Shown here: in pieces, positions 1 through 9,406 of the stretch
Position numbering within the stretch: position 1 is the stretch's first letter
Layout: each line of letters begins with the position of its first letter
Source: a virus
Lineage: Duplodnaviria; Heunggongvirae; Uroviricota; Caudoviricetes
Strand: one strand, 5' to 3'
IMG/VR virus record: IMGVR_UViG_2778261591_000019
DNA length: 12,645 bases
Translations under genes and position numbers: made by a program
The notes under the pieces: generated by a model
Databases searched by the model: none
What the model was told of the DNA's origin: nothing
The model's input: only the letters and a program-made list of their open reading frames with translations

Positions 1-276
1 CTGGCGAAGGATATCGTTACTGCGGCGCAGTTCACGATTTTCACGTTCCAGCTCTTTCAGACGCTGACGTTCAGCGCTGGTGAGCCCACCATCACCGCCC
101 CCGGTATCCCGCTCATGCTGGCGAACCCAGACACGCAGAGTCTCCGGCGTACAGCCAATCTTTGGGGCAATGGAACAAATTGCCGCCCACTGTGAGTCAT
201 ATTCATCCTGACTTTCCAGAACCATACGAATCGCCCGCTGACGGACTTCGGGGGAAAAACGAGTATTTTTAGTCAT
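1..276 (-). CDS. IS3-family transposase OrfA (HTH/leucine-zipper subunit), N-terminal 92 codons; 3' end lies outside the window
   Basis: ATG at 276-274 (minus strand); exactly 92 in-frame codons to position 1 with no stop; sequence ends ...[20 protein letters not shown], typical of IS3/IS629 OrfA. Confidence 0.85.
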
Positions 277-330
277 CCTGTTTACCTCTTTCTCAGGGAG
301 TTTAGTCTCCAGGATTTCCGGGGCGGTTCA
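1..330 (-). mobile_element. IS3-family insertion sequence (IS629/IS1203/IS3411-like), terminal 330 bp; element continues beyond the left edge of the window
   Basis: Minus-strand OrfA translation [23 protein letters not shown]... is recognisably IS3-family OrfA (recalled, not searched). The element ends ...GGCGGTTCA at 330, matching the TG...CA termini of IS3-family inverted repeats, with about 54 bp between the terminus and the OrfA ATG. Confidence 0.8.
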
Positions 331-1754: not shown

Positions 1755-2345
1755 TTAGCATGATTCAGGGGAAACCCCAATATTAAATATGAGTGACTCT
1801 CCTGAATCAGCATAATAATGTAATATTATTGACTTACGTTGTTTTCTTGCTTCGTAGAATAAACGCTCTTGCGGCGATAATTTGTGAAAACTGCCGGATG
1901 CACAATATATGTTTTTTAACTTTTCGCTGGTTGCTTTTATTGTATCTTCTGAGATGTATTTTAGGTATTTATCCGTATAGATGTTGCTACTATAAGAAAT
2001 TAATGTTTTGCTGTTGTTGTGATGTATTGTATTTTTATCGTTGAAGTCTGTATTTTTATTTACTGTCATTAGGTTTTTAATGATTACATGTAATGCAATA
2101 GTCTCCCCATCATCAATTCCATATTTGATGTCATAGTCAGTATATTTATTTGTTATACCGCTTCCTGATAGCGGCACTATGTACTCTGAGAAAAATGAGT
2201 TTGCCGCGTGACCATCAAGAGCAATAGCAGTTTTTTTGTGGTAAAAATAAAACAATATTGAGAGAGTCAAAATAATAGCGACGCCTAATGCAACCTTTAA
2301 TATAGATATGGTTTTCAAAATATCGCTCCTTGTTGTAACATACAT
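1755..2345 (-). CDS. Hypothetical single-pass membrane protein in an AT-rich island; candidate superinfection-exclusion-type moron
   Basis: About 200-codon ORF in visibly AT-rich DNA, where long ORFs are unlikely by chance. Predicted N-terminal TM helix (ISILKVALGVAIILTLSILFYFY) followed by an N/K/Y/S-rich soluble domain. Start ambiguous (ATG 2345 or TTG 2366), no clear SD. Sits where sieA lies in P22-like phages. Confidence 0.5.
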   Translation of the reverse strand: MYVTTRSDILKTISILKVALGVAIILTLSILFYFYHKKTAIALDGHAANSFFSEYIVPLSGSGITNKYTDYDIKYGIDDGETIALHVIIKNLMTVNKNTDFNDKNTIHHNNSKTLISYSSNIYTDKYLKYISEDTIKATSEKLKNIYCASGSFHKLSPQERLFYEARKQRKSIILHYYADSGESLIFNIGVSPESC

Positions 2346-2378
2346 CAGTAATGTGGCGTTTTTCAATTGTATTAAAGA

Positions 2379-2408
2379 CGTGTAATATGTACACGCCTTT
2401 TGTTCTTC
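2379..2408 (-). terminator. Weak hairpin plus T-rich tract between the mnt-like gene and the membrane-protein gene
   Basis: CGTGTA-ATATG-TACACG stem-loop (2379-2395) flanked by T-rich sequence; only a 6-bp stem. Confidence 0.25.
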
Positions 2409-2840
2409 CTATTCAGGTATTTCAATTCCAAAACCATCTGCATCCCATGAGTTTTCACAGATGATGTAACCTAGTTCATTGAGCTTATTAAATGTTTTTT
2501 CAAAGATGATCTGGTAATCATTATCTGCAAGTGATTCCAGTTCAAGGTCATTAAGGTTTATATAAAAACTTGTATGTCCAAGTGTTATTTTCTTATTGAT
2601 TTCATTAAAAGTTCTTTTGAAAATAATATTTGATATTTCATGCCGTGCATTGTTTGCAATAATTTTTGCTTCATAAGCAGAAATTACGTCATCTTCATGA
2701 ATATCTTTCAGAAAGCTGGTGTCAAGACGTTGTACTATTTCAGCGTTCATTGAGCGCTTATTGGCTTTTGCAGAAATTTCTATTTTTTCTTTTACTTCAA
2801 CGGGAAGTCTGATCCTTAGTTGTGGATCTTCTCTGCTCAT
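2409..2840 (-). CDS. mnt: Mnt-like ribbon-helix-helix repressor with an extra C-terminal domain of about 60 aa
   Basis: N-terminus MSREDPQLRIRLPVEVKEKIEISAKANKRSMNAEIVQRL matches the P22 Mnt RHH motif (DP..F..R.P.EV.EK....A.AN.RSMN.E..Q). ATG at 2840 preceded by a GGTGA SD. Divergent from the arc-like/ant genes as in P22 immI. 143 aa versus 83 aa for P22 Mnt. Confidence 0.75.
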   Translation of the reverse strand: MSREDPQLRIRLPVEVKEKIEISAKANKRSMNAEIVQRLDTSFLKDIHEDDVISAYEAKIIANNARHEISNIIFKRTFNEINKKITLGHTSFYINLNDLELESLADNDYQIIFEKTFNKLNELGYIICENSWDADGFGIEIPE

Positions 2841-2870
2841 GTTCTTCACCAAATATTGAGTTACTTGCAA

Positions 2871-4281: not shown

Positions 4282-4827
4282 TTATTCCTTCCATTTATCA
4301 GAAAAAAGATCTTCTTCTAAAGGCATTGGTTCTGTTTTTGTTTTCTCAAAGAATTGATAACTGATAGTGATTGCTTCCTCTTTAAACTCTTCTTGCTCAG
4401 TTATGTTGTGGGCATCTGCGTCAACAAAAAACATAACCAGCGCATCACGATTGTGATTTACCGAATAAACTAAAAAGCAATCACTTGTTGGTATGCATTT
4501 TACTTGCACAGACGCTATATTTTTCCATGCATCCCAAGATGATTTTTTACCAGTGTGTTTTTTATCACTATCTTCTGGAATATAGTCTTGGTTATCGACA
4601 TGAGTATGCCTGACATTTAGTTTAAGCATTTCTGTCGGACGAGCAAATGCAGCATCTTTACCAAGAGATGGATGGTATCCCGTTTTCCAATACTGGGTAA
4701 AGGCATCAGATACTTTCTTCAGCTCAAGATCAGATGCACAAAGGGCCGAGAAATTTTGCGTATGCAATACTCGACCCTTATATCTGACAATTTGATTTTT
4801 ATCATTCTGCGACGCAGACGAACTCAT
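4282..4827 (-). CDS. YafO-like toxin candidate (181 aa)
   Basis: ATG 4827 with AAGGA SD. By-eye similarity to E. coli YafO as I recall it: GKDAAF..P..LKLNVRHTHV versus GRDALY..P..IKFERVAHIHL, and FLVYSV...ALVMFFVDADAH versus HLVYCQ...WLLIAILKPEPH. The YafO sequence is from memory and unverified. Confidence 0.55.
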   Translation of the reverse strand: MSSSASQNDKNQIVRYKGRVLHTQNFSALCASDLELKKVSDAFTQYWKTGYHPSLGKDAAFARPTEMLKLNVRHTHVDNQDYIPEDSDKKHTGKKSSWDAWKNIASVQVKCIPTSDCFLVYSVNHNRDALVMFFVDADAHNITEQEEFKEEAITISYQFFEKTKTEPMPLEEDLFSDKWKE

Positions 4828-4981
4828 AATTTTCCTTATTGTTACGAGAATCAAAGAAAGCTCGGGATACGCGACTTGCGTGATCTTTTGTCATAGTAAC
4901 TTTTACGTACTCTACGCTTCCATTGAAAGAACGTCTTGCGGCAGCTTGCGCTCTACGCATCTGCAATTTTTCGTTTCGCAT
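4802..4981 (-). CDS. Small basic ORF (59 aa) overlapping the start of the toxin-like gene; candidate cognate antitoxin/regulator
   Basis: Not in the supplied ORF track (below size cutoff). ATG 4981 preceded by GAGG SD; stop TGA at 4804-4802 overlaps the downstream gene start by 26 nt. Promoter-like -35 TTGGTT (complement of 5031-5036), 17-nt spacer, -10 TGTAAT (complement of 5008-5013). Product MRNEKLQMRRAQAAARRSFNGSVEYVKVTMTKDHASRVSRAFFDSRNNKENYEFVCVAE. Confidence 0.35.
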   Translation of the reverse strand: MRNEKLQMRRAQAAARRSFNGSVEYVKVTMTKDHASRVSRAFFDSRNNKENYEFVCVAE

Positions 4982-6096: not shown

Positions 6097-6172
6097 GATA
6101 AGCGCTGAGAAATATCAAAATCAACCGTATTTGGTTGATGGAGTTTAATGCTTGATCACCTGAAAGCAAGAT

Positions 6173-6189
6173 ATTACCTTTAAGGTAAT
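6173..6189. promoter_or_regulatory. ATTACC-N5-GGTAAT palindrome (proximal site, about 20 bp upstream of the 6209 start)
   Basis: ATTACCTTTAAGGTAAT read directly; preceded by ATCACCTGAAAG (6155-6166), which recurs at 7292-7303. Confidence 0.35.
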
Positions 6190-6208
6190 GTTATTGTGAG
6201 GAAAAGCA

Positions 6209-6937
6209 ATGGAAGTTTTCTGGATAGTTGTTGGTGTGGTTGCGGTGATTATTTATGTCCTTCACCAGAACAAGACTAAGATCTCTGATCGCACGGTCGT
6301 TAATCATAACAAAACGATAAAGACCGAAGATGGGGAGATAACGATTAATCGTACACAGGTGATAGAACACACCTCTACTCAGTTTCAAAAAACTGGAGGT
6401 AATGCGCCTAATATTTCCGCACCTCCTGCTTATGATAGTGAGGTAATCCAGACATATTATAAACAGCAGGAGTTAGCAAAAGAGAGGCAACTGATTCAGC
6501 CAAAGCCATTTACAGCAGAGCTTCCACCTGGAGTGTCAACGCGTCCGGCATATCATGGAAGATTCCCTGGTGATGACATATCGTCTCAGTCACCTAAAAA
6601 AGCACCTCAGGCAGTATCAGAGTCAGCAAGAATACCTTCTGTATCGCCGTCAAAAGAAGAATCAGCTAACAGAGTTTCAAGTGGCCGCAAGCAGTGTTTG
6701 CGATGCAGAATAAACCTTCCATATGAAAAATTCCGGAAATCGTCAAAAAATCCAGATGGATTGACTAAGTGGTGTGCAAGGTGTCTCGATGGCCCAAAGA
6801 ATACACGTCATATGAAGTGGTGCCCAATTTGTAATGTCCGCAGAAAACGAACCAGCTTTTATCCTAATAATCAAAATGCGGATGGTTTAATGGCATGGTG
6901 CAAAACGTGCTGGGACGAGCACAAAGCGAAACGATAG
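6209..6937 (+). CDS. Membrane-tethered protein with two tandem C-x2-C-x22-C-x2-C zinc-ribbon motifs (242 aa); function unknown
   Basis: ATG 6209 with GAGG SD. N-terminal TM helix (VFWIVVGVVAVIIYVL), S/P/Q-rich linker, then CLRC-x22-CARC and CPIC-x22-CKTC, each with a conserved P...N.DGL..WC core. Confidence 0.7.
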   Translation: MEVFWIVVGVVAVIIYVLHQNKTKISDRTVVNHNKTIKTEDGEITINRTQVIEHTSTQFQKTGGNAPNISAPPAYDSEVIQTYYKQQELAKERQLIQPKPFTAELPPGVSTRPAYHGRFPGDDISSQSPKKAPQAVSESARIPSVSPSKEESANRVSSGRKQCLRCRINLPYEKFRKSSKNPDGLTKWCARCLDGPKNTRHMKWCPICNVRRKRTSFYPNNQNADGLMAWCKTCWDEHKAKR

Positions 6938-6960
6938 GCCGCTCTTGCGGCCTTTTCTTT
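6937..6960 (+). terminator. Rho-independent terminator after the zinc-ribbon gene (possibly bidirectional)
   Basis: GGCCGC-TCTT-GCGGCC hairpin (6937-6952) plus TTTTCTTT; same stem sequence as the ant terminator at 4197-4212. Confidence 0.6.
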
Positions 6961-7216
6961 ATGTAGTTTGTTTTCGTAATTGTTCGGCACAATAGTCGAG
7001 ATGTGTTTGCAGATCCTGCATAGACATCTGTGAGCTGGTGACGTAGTTAATCAGTGCAGTCAGTTCGGCAAGTGGGCCATCGACATTAAATCCATCCTTA
7101 TCGAGATCCCGGAGTAATTTCATCAAGTGCGATCCCTCCACCAGTGACCTGACGCCTCCCGGCGTGTGAATCCTTTCGGTAAATCCCTCTTCCAGTGGAT
7201 AGTGATACTGCTGCAT
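6959..7216 (-). CDS. Stand-alone antirepressor C-terminal-module protein (85 aa)
   Basis: ATG 7216 with GGAG SD. IHTPGGVRSLVEGSHLMKLLRDLDKDGFNVDGPLAELTALINYV...DLQTHLDY aligns with IHSPSGVLGLTENSLLMNLLNQLQDDGHDVSGAAAELTTMFCYI...DIQTHAEY of both antirepressors, about 45% identity by eye. Confidence 0.7.
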   Translation of the reverse strand: MQQYHYPLEEGFTERIHTPGGVRSLVEGSHLMKLLRDLDKDGFNVDGPLAELTALINYVTSSQMSMQDLQTHLDYCAEQLRKQTT

Positions 7217-7291
7217 CTTATCTTCTCCATGCAATAACTGTATAAATATACAGTAGCAAATAATTTGTTTGCTATCCAGCACGTTTTGCGA

Positions 7292-7308
7292 ATCACCTGA
7301 AAGGTAAT
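7292..7308. promoter_or_regulatory. ATCACC-N5-GGTAAT palindrome in the divergent promoter region between the Ant-C-like gene and the tailspike
   Basis: ATCACCTGAAAGGTAAT read directly; a further half-site TTTAAGGTAAT at 7348-7358. Confidence 0.35.
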
Positions 7309-7411
7309 ATCTGTTCGTATTTATGGGTTATCTATCCATATATGGTTTTTAAGGTAATAGAATAACCGGATATGCGGCGCAACGGGTGCTGCGACTATCT
7401 GGAGATTTAAC

Positions 7412-9406
7412 ATGACGGTCTCAACCGAAGTTGACCACAACGAATATACAGGTAACGGTGTTACAACTACGTTCCCTTATACCTTTAGGATTTTCCAGAA
7501 ATCTGATCTGGTGGTGCAGGTGATTGACCTTGACGAGAATATCACTGTGCTGGCTCTTGATACTGATTACGCAGTCACTGGTGCGGGAGGCTATAGCGGC
7601 GGTAATATAATACTGTCGAAGGCATTGGCCAACGGTTATCAGATCTCTATATCACGAGAGCTCCCGGTTACTCAGGAAACAGATCTGCGTAATCAGGGTA
7701 AATTCTTTGCAGAGGTGCATGAGGATGCGTTTGATAAGCTAACGATGCTGATTCAACAATGTCGTAGCTTGTTTCGTCTTGCACTTTGCAAACCATCAAG
7801 TATTGCAAACTGGTACGACGCTTTAAATAACAGGATTAGAAATCTTAAAGATCCAGAAAGCCCTCAGGATGCAGTAACTTTAAGTTATCTTGAAGGGTAT
7901 ATAGAAGGTGGTGATAGTACTTTGCGTCCAGATATTACAAGAACTGGAGCTGTAGGGAATAATATACAGCAAGCCATAAACTTATCTATAGCCGGTCAAA
8001 CTGTAATTACGATGAAAGATGATGAAATTGTATCTTCATTGTTAAATGAATATGGTGTTGAAATTGAGCAACGCAGGGGGCGTGTATTTAATACAGAAGG
8101 TGTTCAACTAACAACGTATTCTGACCCTCGTTCCCGTTTTGTAACTGGTGACCAATATCTTAATTATGTTATTAGCAAGATGATAAAAGCAGATGGCGTG
8201 GATAAATCACAGAAAACATATATTTTGTGGTCTGGTGACTCCACGATTGTTGGTGTTAACTCTGAATTATGGCCACCAGCAACTATTGCTGATTTTTATG
8301 CAAAAAGGTATGGAATTATTGATGTAAAAAATACATCGTTAGGTCATTCAGGTAAAACTCTATACGAATGGGGTAATTGGTATATTGATCAGGAATGGTC
8401 TGTTTTTTCTGCTGCTGATTTGATTGTTTTACGATGGGGAATTAACGATCCATATTATGGTTATACATTGGATCAAGTAAAAGACGCATTAGATAGAGGT
8501 CTTTCCAAGTTACGAAATAACAAATCAGTTTCCCAGCAATCAATTATTATCATGTCCCCAAACTCAACATCAGACACACCAAACGGACGTGATGAAAAAT
8601 GGTATGAACAGTTAACAGCCGTACTTAGAGCCAAAGCAAAACAATATAAGTGTATGTTTTTTGATACTTACGGTATGTGGCAGGATTCGCGAGGATCTGC
8701 TGGTAACTGGCTTGACGACCCTTATGGCGATGGCAGGGGAATACACCCAAACTCAACATTTAGCGCACAGATACATAAATTATTATTTGAATATATTTAT
8801 GGACCGTGTGCTGTTATAAATGGGAGTAGCAACCTTTTTTCTAACAATGGTTCTTCCATACAATTCATCAATAGCTCATATCCGCCAAATACTTTTCACA
8901 TGGGGACTTCATGGTGGAGAACAAACCCTGATGATGCTTCTTGGCCTCTTGACGGTGTTATTCAGGTTGATAGATTTGTTGACGGAATAGTAGTACAAAA
9001 AAATTATGGTTATTCTTCAGATAATGCTCGCGTTTGCTTAATGAGGATTGGAAGGATTAGTGAGAATACATGGAGTACATGGCGAGGTAATCAGTATGAT
9101 ATGAGTGGCATATTGCAAAATGGTTGGTCTGTAGGTGAGGCAAGAAGTGGAACATATCAGAAATCAGCCGAGGGCGTTGTTACTTTATCTGCTGTTTTAA
9201 CAGGTGGAAATACATCTGTTGGCACAGTTATTATGGTATTGCCAGAAGGGTTTAGACCAAAGAATGATATTTCTTATATTCCATCAGGTACTGATTCATC
9301 GGTTGCCCTCATTAATATACTTTCAAACGGTAAAGTTACAATTCAGAGCTATCCGTCAGGAACAGTTCTTGTAATTAATACGACATTCCCTTCATTAGTT
9401 AATTAG
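7412..9406 (+). CDS. Tailspike/tail fibre with conserved N-terminal particle-binding domain, central SGNH (GDSL-type) esterase domain and C-terminal beta-rich receptor-binding region (664 aa)
   Basis: ATG 7412 with GGAG SD. SGNH blocks: WSGDST (G275-D276-S277), LGHSGKT, WGINDP, GRGIHPN. N-terminal about 120 aa (NEYTGNGVTTTFPYTF...DTDYAVTG) resembles tail-fibre/tailspike anchor domains. Size and domain order fit an O-antigen-deacetylating tailspike. Confidence 0.8.
   Translation: MTVSTEVDHNEYTGNGVTTTFPYTFRIFQKSDLVVQVIDLDENITVLALDTDYAVTGAGGYSGGNIILSKALANGYQISISRELPVTQETDLRNQGKFFAEVHEDAFDKLTMLIQQCRSLFRLALCKPSSIANWYDALNNRIRNLKDPESPQDAVTLSYLEGYIEGGDSTLRPDITRTGAVGNNIQQAINLSIAGQTVITMKDDEIVSSLLNEYGVEIEQRRGRVFNTEGVQLTTYSDPRSRFVTGDQYLNYVISKMIKADGVDKSQKTYILWSGDSTIVGVNSELWPPATIADFYAKRYGIIDVKNTSLGHSGKTLYEWGNWYIDQEWSVFSAADLIVLRWGINDPYYGYTLDQVKDALDRGLSKLRNNKSVSQQSIIIMSPNSTSDTPNGRDEKWYEQLTAVLRAKAKQYKCMFFDTYGMWQDSRGSAGNWLDDPYGDGRGIHPNSTFSAQIHKLLFEYIYGPCAVINGSSNLFSNNGSSIQFINSSYPPNTFHMGTSWWRTNPDDASWPLDGVIQVDRFVDGIVVQKNYGYSSDNARVCLMRIGRISENTWSTWRGNQYDMSGILQNGWSVGEARSGTYQKSAEGVVTLSAVLTGGNTSVGTVIMVLPEGFRPKNDISYIPSGTDSSVALINILSNGKVTIQSYPSGTVLVINTTFPSLVN

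What the first reader, a model, noticed from the sequence alone, without database searches (positions are those of the whole stretch)
7412..9406. Chimeric tailspike: conserved N-terminal anchor fused to an AT-rich SGNH-esterase domain, with a composition break near 7770-7790
The first roughly 120 codons have host-like composition. From about codon 125 onward the gene becomes visibly AT-rich and encodes SGNH hydrolase blocks (GDS with Ser277, GHSG, GxND, and a His-containing block). This matches the logic of enzymatic tailspikes that deacetylate or otherwise modify O-antigen, and it suggests the receptor-specificity module was acquired horizontally onto a conserved anchor. The last block is GRGIHP rather than canonical DxxH, so the catalytic triad may be atypical.
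Basis: partly seen in the sequence, partly recalled or inferred. Interest (0 to 1): 0.6.

Follow-up and report, generated by a model that had tools for sequence, protein, structure and literature searches.

The report
Mosaic prophage tailspike with esterase module
This gene encodes the host-recognition spike of an epsilon15-like prophage of cattle-associated Shiga-toxin E. coli, built by joining a conserved virion-attachment end to an AT-rich, exchangeable esterase cassette; it is a well-supported but fairly ordinary example of a known kind of phage protein.

Summary
ORF 7412-9406 (664 aa) has a significant composition change-point. Third-position GC falls from 0.48 to 0.25 at codon ~113 (nt ~7750; support range codons 85-145; 2 of 5000 permutations reach it).

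The chimera is shown directly:
- aa 1-~165 is the epsilon15/phiV10-type tailspike anchor, shared by about 490 E. coli genomes.
- aa 174-664 is 79% identical to the distal part of a P22-type tailspike and also occurs on other anchor types.

The protein-level junction (codon 174) lies about 60 codons downstream of the GC break.

Block V is non-canonical across the whole family. Arg442 sits where the triad Asp belongs, and an invariant Asp435 lies 10 residues before His445.

Esterase activity and the substrate were not tested. The two complete genomes carrying the gene are O45 and O84, so the receptor is unresolved.

Verdict: a new member of a known kind (SGNH esterase receptor-binding proteins), already annotated in RefSeq as an SGNH/GDSL hydrolase. 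Interest is modest.

The parts
7401..7404 (+). Shine-Dalgarno-like GGAG, 7 nt before the ATG
   Evidence: Read directly from the sequence.
7412..9406 (+). Tailspike / receptor-binding protein gene, 664 aa plus stop
   Evidence: ORF list and translation. It is 99.5% identical to RefSeq genes annotated 'SGNH/GDSL hydrolase family protein' in E. coli UTAK-1 and OkiPb01711. In both it occupies the tailspike slot of an epsilon15-like prophage, just before the lysis cassette.
7412..7750 (+). Conserved part of the virion-attachment anchor (aa 1-113), GC3 0.48
   Evidence: About 88-89% nt identity to the tailspike genes of Uetakevirus PAS61 and phage TL-2011b, ending at nt 341 of the gene. GC3 values.
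7751..7930 (+). AT-rich neck of the anchor (aa 114-173), GC3 0.22. It still belongs to the anchor family but has diverged from the E. coli phage versions.
   Evidence: PHROG 1640 and related families align to aa 1-162/166, and PDB Dpo31 (28lx) to aa 1-165. DNA identity to PAS61 falls to about 60% after nt 330. The segment is 85% identical in protein to P0014, another anchor-plus-SGNH tailspike.
7931..8206 (+). Start of the exchangeable cassette (aa 174-~265): a small helix/beta subdomain resembling the N-terminal cap of pectate-lyase-3 beta-helices
   Evidence: Homology to the MDR_56 P22-type tailspike begins at aa 174 / nt 7930. Profile hits to beta-helix caps of 5m5z, 3eqn, Sf6 tailspike 2vbe and phi29 gp12. 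Secondary structure from the model.
8213..8821 (+). SGNH hydrolase (esterase) domain, aa ~268-470
8240..8242 (+). Codon of Ser277, the predicted nucleophile (block I, GDST)
   Evidence: G275-D276-S277-T278 are invariant in 68/68 homologues. Aligns to TesA Ser10.
8342..8353 (+). Block II, GHSG 311-314 (oxyanion-hole glycine)
   Evidence: Gly311 is invariant. Gly314 is kept in 54/68 homologues and aligns to TesA Gly44.
8438..8449 (+). Block III, GIND 343-346 (Asn345)
   Evidence: G343 68/68, N345 67/68, D346 68/68.
8708..8749 (+). Extended block V, W433-L-D435-D-P-Y-G-D440-G-R442-G-I-H445-P446
   Evidence: His445, Pro446 and Asp435 are invariant. Arg442 is kept in 61/68 and Asp440 in 60/68. hhalign against TesA shows a 5-residue insertion, with Arg442 at the position of catalytic Asp154.
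8834..9403 (+). C-terminal beta-sandwich domain (aa ~475-664), probably a distal carbohydrate-binding or trimerisation knob

Best explanation
The gene encodes the tailspike (receptor-binding protein) of an epsilon15-like (Uetakevirus-type) podovirus prophage integrated next to yfgI in bovine STEC.

The protein is a mosaic:
- aa 1-~165 form the trimeric anchor that docks the spike onto the tail.
- aa 174-664 are a self-contained, AT-rich cassette that moves between unrelated phage types by recombination near a conserved linker (D-I-T/K-R-T/S-G-A-V/I ... I-Q-x-A-I-N).
- The cassette comprises a beta-helix-cap remnant, an SGNH esterase domain and a distal beta-sandwich.

Inferred mechanism. The distal domains bind an O-acetylated surface polysaccharide, most likely the O-antigen. 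Ser277/His445, with the Gly311/314 and Asn345 oxyanion hole, remove acetyl groups. This modifies the receptor without cutting the chain and lets the virion commit and move toward the outer membrane. Deacetylation by a tailspike has been shown for G7C gp63.1 and Pectobacterium phage PP99 gp55.

The acid of the classical triad is not at His-3, where Arg442 sits. Catalysis would therefore run either as a Ser-His dyad or with a relocated acid (invariant Asp435, or Asp440).

Shown here: the ORF, the composition break, the mosaic homology, the SGNH fold and motifs, and the prophage context. Inferred: trimer formation, enzymatic activity, the acetyl ester as substrate, O-antigen as the receptor, and the role in adsorption.
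For: Prophage and position. The gene sits between the immunity/antirepressor-type genes and the holin-holin-GH19 endolysin-DUF2514 cassette at the right end of a prophage next to yfgI/yfgH. That prophage has T7 gp14-family and SLT internal virion proteins. Window 6936-7832 is 89% identical in DNA to Uetakevirus PAS61, whose homologous gene is annotated as the O146 tailspike.

Anchor. PHROG 1640 'tail protein' E=5e-112 over aa 1-162. PDB Dpo31 tailspike E=4e-27 over aa 1-165. DNA identity of 80% to the phiV10 tail-fibre gene and to the tailspike gene of Salmonella phage VB_ST_E15.

Mosaicism. There is a 79%-identical cassette behind the P22 Head_binding domain PF09008. The same cassette occurs behind PF18668 and PF12708 N-termini, always starting at query aa 174-177. 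The family has 839 clusters at 50% identity, and the cassette begins at many different positions in those proteins.

Composition. The GC3 change-point is significant, and the cassette is also AT-rich in MDR_56.

Link to O-acetylation. In locus L006 a 76%-identical cassette lies directly upstream of an Acyl_transf_3 gene plus a separate SGNH gene, an O-antigen-acetylation-type conversion module.

Precedents from papers. The epsilon15 gp20 petal domain is an SGNH esterase acting on O-antigen acetyl groups (bioRxiv 10.64898/2026.07.31.742079). PP99 gp55 deacetylates an O-polysaccharide (PMC6989608). SGNH receptor-binding proteins are prevalent in Klebsiella prophages, and two of them hydrolyse p-nitrophenyl acetate (PMC13123978).
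Against: No activity data exist for this protein or for any close relative. The nearest sequenced phage isolates are 33% identical or less.

The canonical DxxH acid is missing, with Arg at His-3. Full catalytic competence therefore cannot be assumed from the motifs.

The two complete genomes with the gene have different O serogroups. UTAK-1 carries O45-family wzx/wzy and OkiPb01711 is O84:H2. This fits poorly with a strictly O-antigen-specific spike, unless the O-antigen was switched after lysogeny.

In the window's own strain an IS element truncates an upstream internal-virion protein gene, so this prophage copy may no longer make virions.

The composition break is about 60 codons upstream of the module junction, so a single clean break-and-join at the domain border does not explain both signals.
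Confidence: 0.7

Rival explanations
1. The architecture is the same, but the receptor is not the O-antigen. The esterase would act on an acetylated glycan common to many E. coli, such as colanic acid, enterobacterial common antigen or a capsule, giving a host range that crosses O serogroups.
For: The same tailspike (99.5% identical to the window) sits in an O45-family strain and in an O84:H2 strain. Both chromosomes examined (UTAK-1 and MDR_56) carry colanic-acid clusters with the acetyltransferases WcaB and WcaF. Klebsiella prophage SGNH receptor-binding proteins are linked to capsule types (PMC13123978).
Against: Tailspikes with this anchor in epsilon15, phiV10 and PAS61 are O-antigen specific according to the annotations and papers. 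Both prophages lie at the same site next to yfgI. Vertical inheritance followed by O-antigen replacement therefore explains the two serogroups equally well. The neighbouring Acyl_transf_3 conversion module in L006 points to O-antigen acetylation.
Confidence: 0.15
2. The SGNH domain is a catalytically weak or dead binding module. It has lost the triad Asp, and the spike works purely as an adhesin.
For: Arg442 occupies the position of the triad Asp, and the block V loop carries a 5-residue insertion relative to TesA.
Against: Ser277, Gly311, Asn345 and His445 are conserved in 67-68 of 68 homologues spanning 28-80% identity. That conservation is hard to explain without catalysis. The Arg/Asp435 arrangement is itself conserved, so it looks like a functional variant rather than decay. 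From general knowledge, SGNH-fold esterases working as Ser-His dyads exist, for example in carbohydrate esterase family 2. I did not check this in the papers.
Confidence: 0.1
3. The composition break is not a scar of horizontal acquisition. It reflects a general AT bias of the distal parts of tailspike genes in these phages.
For: The unrelated beta-helix tailspike of PAS61 also drifts to GC3 0.20-0.34 distally. The EC5654 gene dips to GC3 0.18-0.28 around codons 150-250. Other window genes are AT-rich as well (GC 0.32-0.37 at 1755-2870 and 4282-4854).
Against: The break coincides with the end of high DNA identity to PAS61 and TL-2011b at nt 330-341. The same cassette is AT-rich behind a different anchor in MDR_56. 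A more distant version of the cassette (P0014) is not AT-rich, with GC3 0.34-0.42. Composition therefore follows lineage, not position in the gene.
Confidence: 0.05

Closest known systems
Escherichia phage G7C gp63.1 (PDB 4qnl), deacetylating SGNH tailspike
   Different: No sequence similarity was detectable by phmmer, or by the A1 family profile at E<=0.01, against the PDB. It has a different N-terminal attachment (an N4-like, branched adsorption apparatus) and a different overall length (847 aa). I did not check its block V.
Salmonella phage epsilon15 tailspike gp20 (endorhamnosidase beta-helix plus C-terminal SGNH 'petal')
   Same: The same N-terminal anchor family; an epsilon15-named relative, VB_ST_E15, is 80% identical in DNA over the first 387 nt. 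The phage type is the same. It also carries an SGNH esterase, shown to remove O-antigen acetyl groups.
   Different: gp20 is 1070 aa, with a GH90-type beta-helix glycosidase as its main body and a canonical Ser787-Asp1035-His1038 triad. The window protein has no beta-helix body, only a cap remnant. Its esterase cassette is not detectably similar in sequence: tblastn found no Salmonella phage hit at E<=1e-3. It also lacks the DxxH acid.
P22-type tailspike of E. coli MDR_56 (WP_078081080.1) and its 270-member cluster
   Same: The distal 491 aa are 79% identical and share the same extended block V. The cassette is AT-rich there too.
   Different: The N-terminus is the P22 Head_binding domain PF09008 instead of the epsilon15-type anchor. 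That prophage sits at tRNA-Arg with IntS. It is uncharacterised experimentally.
Pectobacterium phage tail spikes (PPWS4, PPWS2; PP99 gp55)
   Same: SGNH tail spikes of podoviruses. PPWS4 and PPWS2 are about 30% identical over 58-74% of the cassette, and PPWS4 gives Foldseek E=5e-35. PP99 gp55 is a trimer shown to deacetylate an O-polysaccharide and is a structural match (E=8.5e-10).
   Different: They are distant in sequence. PP99 itself was not recovered by tblastn. The hosts and anchors differ (T7/SP6-like phages).
SGNH-domain receptor-binding proteins of Klebsiella prophages (PMC13123978)
   Same: Temperate-phage receptor-binding proteins that carry an SGNH hydrolase domain instead of a beta-helix depolymerase. 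Two were shown to hydrolyse p-nitrophenyl acetate, and the class is described as prevalent.
   Different: They are tied to capsule (K) types rather than to E. coli O-antigens. I did not test sequence relatedness to the present cassette.

Membership tests
SGNH/GDSL hydrolase superfamily | Profile match above the curated threshold | tested here: met
   PF13472 Lipase_GDSL_2 scores 56.4 bits against a cut-off of 32.9, E=7e-15, over aa 275-448.
SGNH/GDSL hydrolase superfamily | Three-layer alpha/beta/alpha SGNH fold | tested here: met
SGNH/GDSL hydrolase superfamily | Block I GDS(L) with the nucleophilic Ser | tested here: met
   G275-D276-S277-T278 are invariant in 68/68 homologues and align to TesA Ser10.
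SGNH/GDSL hydrolase superfamily | Block II Gly and block III GxND Asn (oxyanion hole) | tested here: met
   GHSG 311-314: G311 68/68, and G314 54/68 aligned to TesA Gly44. GIND 343-346: N345 67/68.
SGNH/GDSL hydrolase superfamily | Block V DxxH (catalytic His with Asp three residues upstream) | tested here: not met
   His445 is invariant, but Arg442 occupies His-3. There is a 5-residue insertion relative to TesA. Candidate acids are Asp435 (68/68) and Asp440 (60/68). The geometry could not be checked because the tools do not expose the model's coordinates.
epsilon15/phiV10-type (Uetakevirus) tailspike | N-terminal virion-attachment domain homologous to the tailspike gene of Salmonella phage VB_ST_E15 (an epsilon15-named relative) and to the phiV10 tail-fibre gene | tested here: met
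   PHROG 1640 E=5e-112 over aa 1-162. DNA identity of 80-89% over the first 341-419 nt to phiV10, VB_ST_E15, PAS61 and TL-2011b. PDB Dpo31 E=4e-27.
epsilon15/phiV10-type (Uetakevirus) tailspike | Position in an epsilon15-like genome, after the internal virion protein genes and before the lysis genes | tested here: met
   UTAK-1, OkiPb01711 and window gene order.
Phage T7 tail fibre N-terminal domain (PF03906) | Pfam match above the gathering score | tested here: inconclusive
   20.2 bits against a cut-off of 25.2, E=5e-4, over aa 11-161. This is a plausible distant relationship but falls below the threshold.
Deacetylating tailspikes (G7C gp63.1 / PP99 gp55 type) | Removes O-acetyl groups from the receptor polysaccharide, and this is needed for adsorption | not testable with these tools
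   Needs enzyme assays and NMR on polysaccharide. Only the fold resemblance was tested.
Beta-helix depolymerase tailspikes (P22/Sf6/HK620 type) | Long right-handed parallel beta-helix body carrying the glycosidase site | tested here: not met
   The model has only about four short strands between aa 197 and 227 before the SGNH domain. Only the cap region matches beta-helix proteins.

The most novel reading that the evidence does not exclude
The rewired active site, conserved across the family, may mark a chemistry other than simple O-acetyl ester hydrolysis. The features are Arg442 in place of the triad Asp, an invariant Asp435 ten residues before His445, and a 5-residue loop insertion. The enzyme might attack another acyl substituent or a phosphodiester/glycosyl-phosphate link. 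One host serogroup, O84, has a beta-L-fucosyl-phosphate in its O-antigen backbone. If so, this would be a beta-helix-free tailspike class that cleaves its receptor rather than only modifying it.
Probability: 0.04. Interest if true: 0.7.

Novelty: new member of a known kind. Interest (0 to 1): 0.3.

Why it matters
The locus is a clean, well-delimited example of how receptor specificity moves between phage types. One esterase cassette of about 490 aa is found on epsilon15-type, P22-type and PF18668-type anchors, with the same linker at the junction.

It also adds an E. coli/STEC example to the recent evidence that temperate phages often use SGNH esterases instead of depolymerases.

In practice, the cassette could be tested as a serogroup-typing or surface-modifying reagent for non-O157 STEC. 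Its conserved non-canonical block V gives a defined mutagenesis question: Asp435 versus Asp440 versus Arg442.

None of this changes current understanding. The protein class, the modular logic and the AT-rich composition of receptor modules are all established.

Tried and rejected
1. Close characterised relatives. tblastn of the cassette against 50,697 phage records found nothing above 33% identity and no Escherichia or Salmonella phage. Function cannot be transferred from an isolate.

2. Sequence search of the PDB. The whole protein matched only through the anchor. The family profile reached generic SGNH enzymes and beta-helix caps, but not 4qnl or 9lna.

3. Geometry of the catalytic acid. The tools return no model coordinates, so Asp435 and Asp440 could not be told apart.

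4. Receptor from host serotype.
- OkiPb01711 is O84:H2, and UTAK-1 carries O45-family wzx/wzy.
- The rfb cluster of MDR_56 has rhamnose genes but no serogroup-named wzx/wzy.
- Papers giving the acetylation state of O84 or O45 were not retrievable.
- My recollection that the 6-deoxy-talose of O45 is 2-O-acetylated (Jann et al. 1995) is unverified.
- The serotypes disagree, so no substrate was assigned.

6. A search for 'SFP21A' (the top Foldseek hit, 9lna) found only a taxonomy list.

7. A promoter/terminator scan around the gene gave nothing above the shuffled expectation that bears on the finding.
Full report
**1. What is there**

The window holds a 664-aa ORF at 7412-9406 on the + strand. 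A GGAG lies 7 nt upstream of its ATG.

The window is the right arm of a prophage plus the adjacent chromosome. In order it contains:
- the C-terminal part of an internal virion protein;
- an Arc-type repressor;
- a P22-type antirepressor;
- a YafO-like toxin;
- a BRO-N protein;
- the ORF in question;
- two holins, a GH19 endolysin and a DUF2514 protein;
- the host genes yfgI and yfgH.

The same gene, 99.5% identical, occurs in only 2 of 5,426 complete E. coli genomes. Both are bovine STEC: UTAK-1 and OkiPb01711. In both it sits at the same chromosomal site, and RefSeq calls it 'SGNH/GDSL hydrolase family protein'. Its 90%-identity cluster has 94 member sequences, all named E. coli where a name exists.

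DNA around the start of the gene (window 6936-7832) is 89% identical to Uetakevirus PAS61. There the homologous gene is the annotated O146 tailspike. The first 340-420 nt are 80-89% identical to the tail-fibre or tailspike genes of phiV10, VB_ST_E15, TL-2011b and PAS61. This is therefore the tailspike of an epsilon15-like prophage.

**2. Check of the observation**

Composition of the gene:

| Codons | GC | GC3 |
|---|---|---|
| 1-113 | 0.46 | 0.478 |
| 114-173 | 0.38 | 0.217 |
| 174-664 | 0.375 | 0.257 |

- A two-segment likelihood scan of GC3 puts the change at codon 113 (nt ~7750), with a support range of codons 85-145.
- Only 2 of 5000 permutations of codon order reach the observed likelihood ratio.

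**3. The esterase domain**

- Pfam Lipase_GDSL_2 matches aa 275-448 at E=7e-15, above the gathering score.
- An AlphaFold model of aa 163-664, built on a 68-sequence alignment, has mean pLDDT 87.8.
- Foldseek against the PDB returns SGNH enzymes: TesA, acetyl-xylan, acetyl-mannan and sialate O-acetylesterases. Its first hit is a phage tail fibre, 9lna.
- In predicted viral structures the best matches are tail proteins of Vibrio phage martha 12B12 and Pectobacterium phage PPWS4. PP99 gp55 is also found.
- Across 68 homologues (28-80% identity), G275, D276, S277, T278, G311, G343, D346, D435, H445 and P446 are invariant. N345 is kept in 67 of 68.

**4. The atypical block V**

The motif is W-(L/M)-D-(D/N)-P-(Y/F)-x-D-G-R-x-I-H-P.

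A profile alignment to E. coli TesA aligns blocks I-III and the His normally. It needs a 5-residue insertion before the His, and it places Arg442 where TesA has the catalytic Asp154.

Candidate acids are Asp435 (68/68) and Asp440 (60/68). I could not inspect the geometry because the tools do not expose model coordinates. By contrast, the epsilon15 gp20 esterase petal has a canonical Ser787-Asp1035-His1038 triad.

**5. The chimera**

- PHROG tail families and the solved tailspike Dpo31 align only to aa 1-162/166.
- About 490 E. coli genomes share the first 340-467 nt of the gene but nothing beyond.
- aa 174-664 are 79% identical to the distal part of a 611-aa tailspike in E. coli MDR_56. That protein's first 113 aa are the P22 Head_binding domain. 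It lies in a prophage with Arc/antirepressor genes and a DNA-transfer-protein remnant, integrated beside tRNA-Arg and intS. DNA homology starts at window nt 7930.
- Other homologues carry the cassette behind PF18668 (TSP1/gp66-type) N-termini, PF12708 beta-helix segments, or other epsilon15-type anchors. Similarity always begins at query aa 174-177.
- One PF18668 example sits in a lambda-like tail-tip context.
- An exhaustive search finds 839 clusters at 50% identity (250 at E<=1e-30). Most cover both the SGNH and the C-terminal domain, at very different offsets in their proteins.

The cassette is thus a widely exchanged unit. The linker around D-I-T-R-T-G-A-V-G...I-Q-Q-A-I-N is the recurrent junction.

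**6. Relation between the composition break and the junction**

The two do not coincide. The GC3 drop at codon ~113 matches the point where about 88% DNA identity to PAS61 and TL-2011b ends (nt 330-341). That point is inside the anchor's neck, about 60 codons before the cassette starts.

The neck (aa 114-173) is AT-rich yet still anchor-like: 85% identical in protein to P0014, another anchor-plus-SGNH spike.

The simplest reading is inference, not demonstration. The last exchange in this lineage was a homologous crossover within the conserved anchor, with a donor that already carried an epsilon15-type neck plus the cassette. The codon-174 boundary would be the older boundary between anchor types.

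The AT-richness travels with the close cassette lineage: MDR_56 has GC3 0.20-0.34. A more distant version, P0014, has GC3 0.34-0.42. Distal AT bias is also seen in the unrelated PAS61 tailspike, so the pattern is common in this gene class.

**7. Other domains of the cassette**

- aa 174-~265 form a short helix/strand unit. Its sequence profile matches the N-terminal cap of pectate-lyase-3 beta-helices, including the Sf6 tailspike and phi29 gp12. There is no beta-helix body.
- aa ~475-664 form a confident beta-sandwich. It resembles the Pa223 tail-needle knob and the Listeria phage PSA receptor-binding head.

**8. How it most likely works**

By analogy with G7C gp63.1, PP99 gp55 and the epsilon15 petal, the spike would bind an acetylated surface polysaccharide and hydrolyse its O-acetyl groups through Ser277/His445. 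That would commit the virion to the cell surface without depolymerising the chain.

Indirect support comes from the neighbourhood of a 76%-identical cassette. It is followed directly by an Acyl_transf_3 gene and a separate SGNH gene, the type of module used for O-antigen acetylation.

The substrate is not established. The two complete host genomes are O45-family and O84:H2. That means one of three things: O-antigen replacement after lysogeny, a shared acetylated epitope, or a receptor that is not the O-antigen. Both chromosomes examined carry acetylated colanic-acid clusters. I could not retrieve the acetylation state of O84 or O45 from the held papers.

**9. Comparison with what is known, and verdict**

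SGNH esterase receptor-binding proteins are an established class. Examples are G7C gp63.1, PP99 gp55, the epsilon15 gp20 petal and many Klebsiella prophage receptor-binding proteins. Modular exchange of tailspike receptor domains on conserved anchors is textbook phage biology.

What is specific here:
- an epsilon15-type spike made only of an esterase cassette, with no beta-helix;
- the same cassette documented on at least three anchor types;
- a family-wide block V without the DxxH acid.

I rate it a new member of a known kind, of modest interest.

Noticed in passing
window 1-330 and ORF 358-1743: The first 330 bases are 99.7% identical (reverse orientation) to part of an IS3-family IS1203 copy. 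The element interrupts the gene for a ~1000-aa internal virion protein (PHROG 342/16310), leaving only its C-terminal 461 codons. The prophage copy in this strain is therefore probably defective.
   Followed up: partly
window 6107-6958 (ORF 6209-6937, +): This stretch is absent from the otherwise 95-99% identical UTAK-1 prophage but present in OkiPb01711. It encodes a 242-aa protein of PHROG 6762 (unknown function). The last ~45 residues resemble the zinc-finger region of endonuclease VII / HNH / Lar-like proteins. A strong hairpin-plus-T-run follows at 6936-6953. There was no PADLOC defence hit.
   Followed up: partly
window 1755-2870 (- strand): A second AT-rich island (GC ~0.32) holds a PHROG 8033 protein of unknown function and an Arc-family repressor. 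It is as AT-rich as the tailspike cassette.
   Followed up: no
window 4282-4854 (- strand): A YafO-family toxin-like ORF (Pfam 26.2 bits, just above the cut-off), AT-rich (GC 0.37), lies inside the prophage between the antirepressor and the BRO-N gene. I looked for no antitoxin partner.
   Followed up: no
L006 8001-11876 (Logan SRR17247029): A 76%-identical esterase cassette on a PF18668 anchor, in a lambda-like tail-tip context, is followed directly by an Acyl_transf_3 gene and a separate 248-aa SGNH gene. An esterase spike thus sits next to an apparent O-antigen acetylation module in the same prophage.
   Followed up: no
L007 (UTAK-1 2,019,687-2,030,085) versus OkiPb01711: The two complete genomes carrying the identical tailspike belong to different O serogroups: O45-family wzx/wzy versus O84:H2. 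The prophages are at the same yfgI site but have different upstream immunity-region genes.
   Followed up: partly
window 7931-8090 (aa 174-226): The start of the cassette looks like a vestigial cap of a pectate-lyase-3 beta-helix (profile hits to fungal beta-1,3-glucanases, Sf6 tailspike and phi29 gp12). This hints that the cassette descends from a beta-helix spike that lost its body.
   Followed up: no
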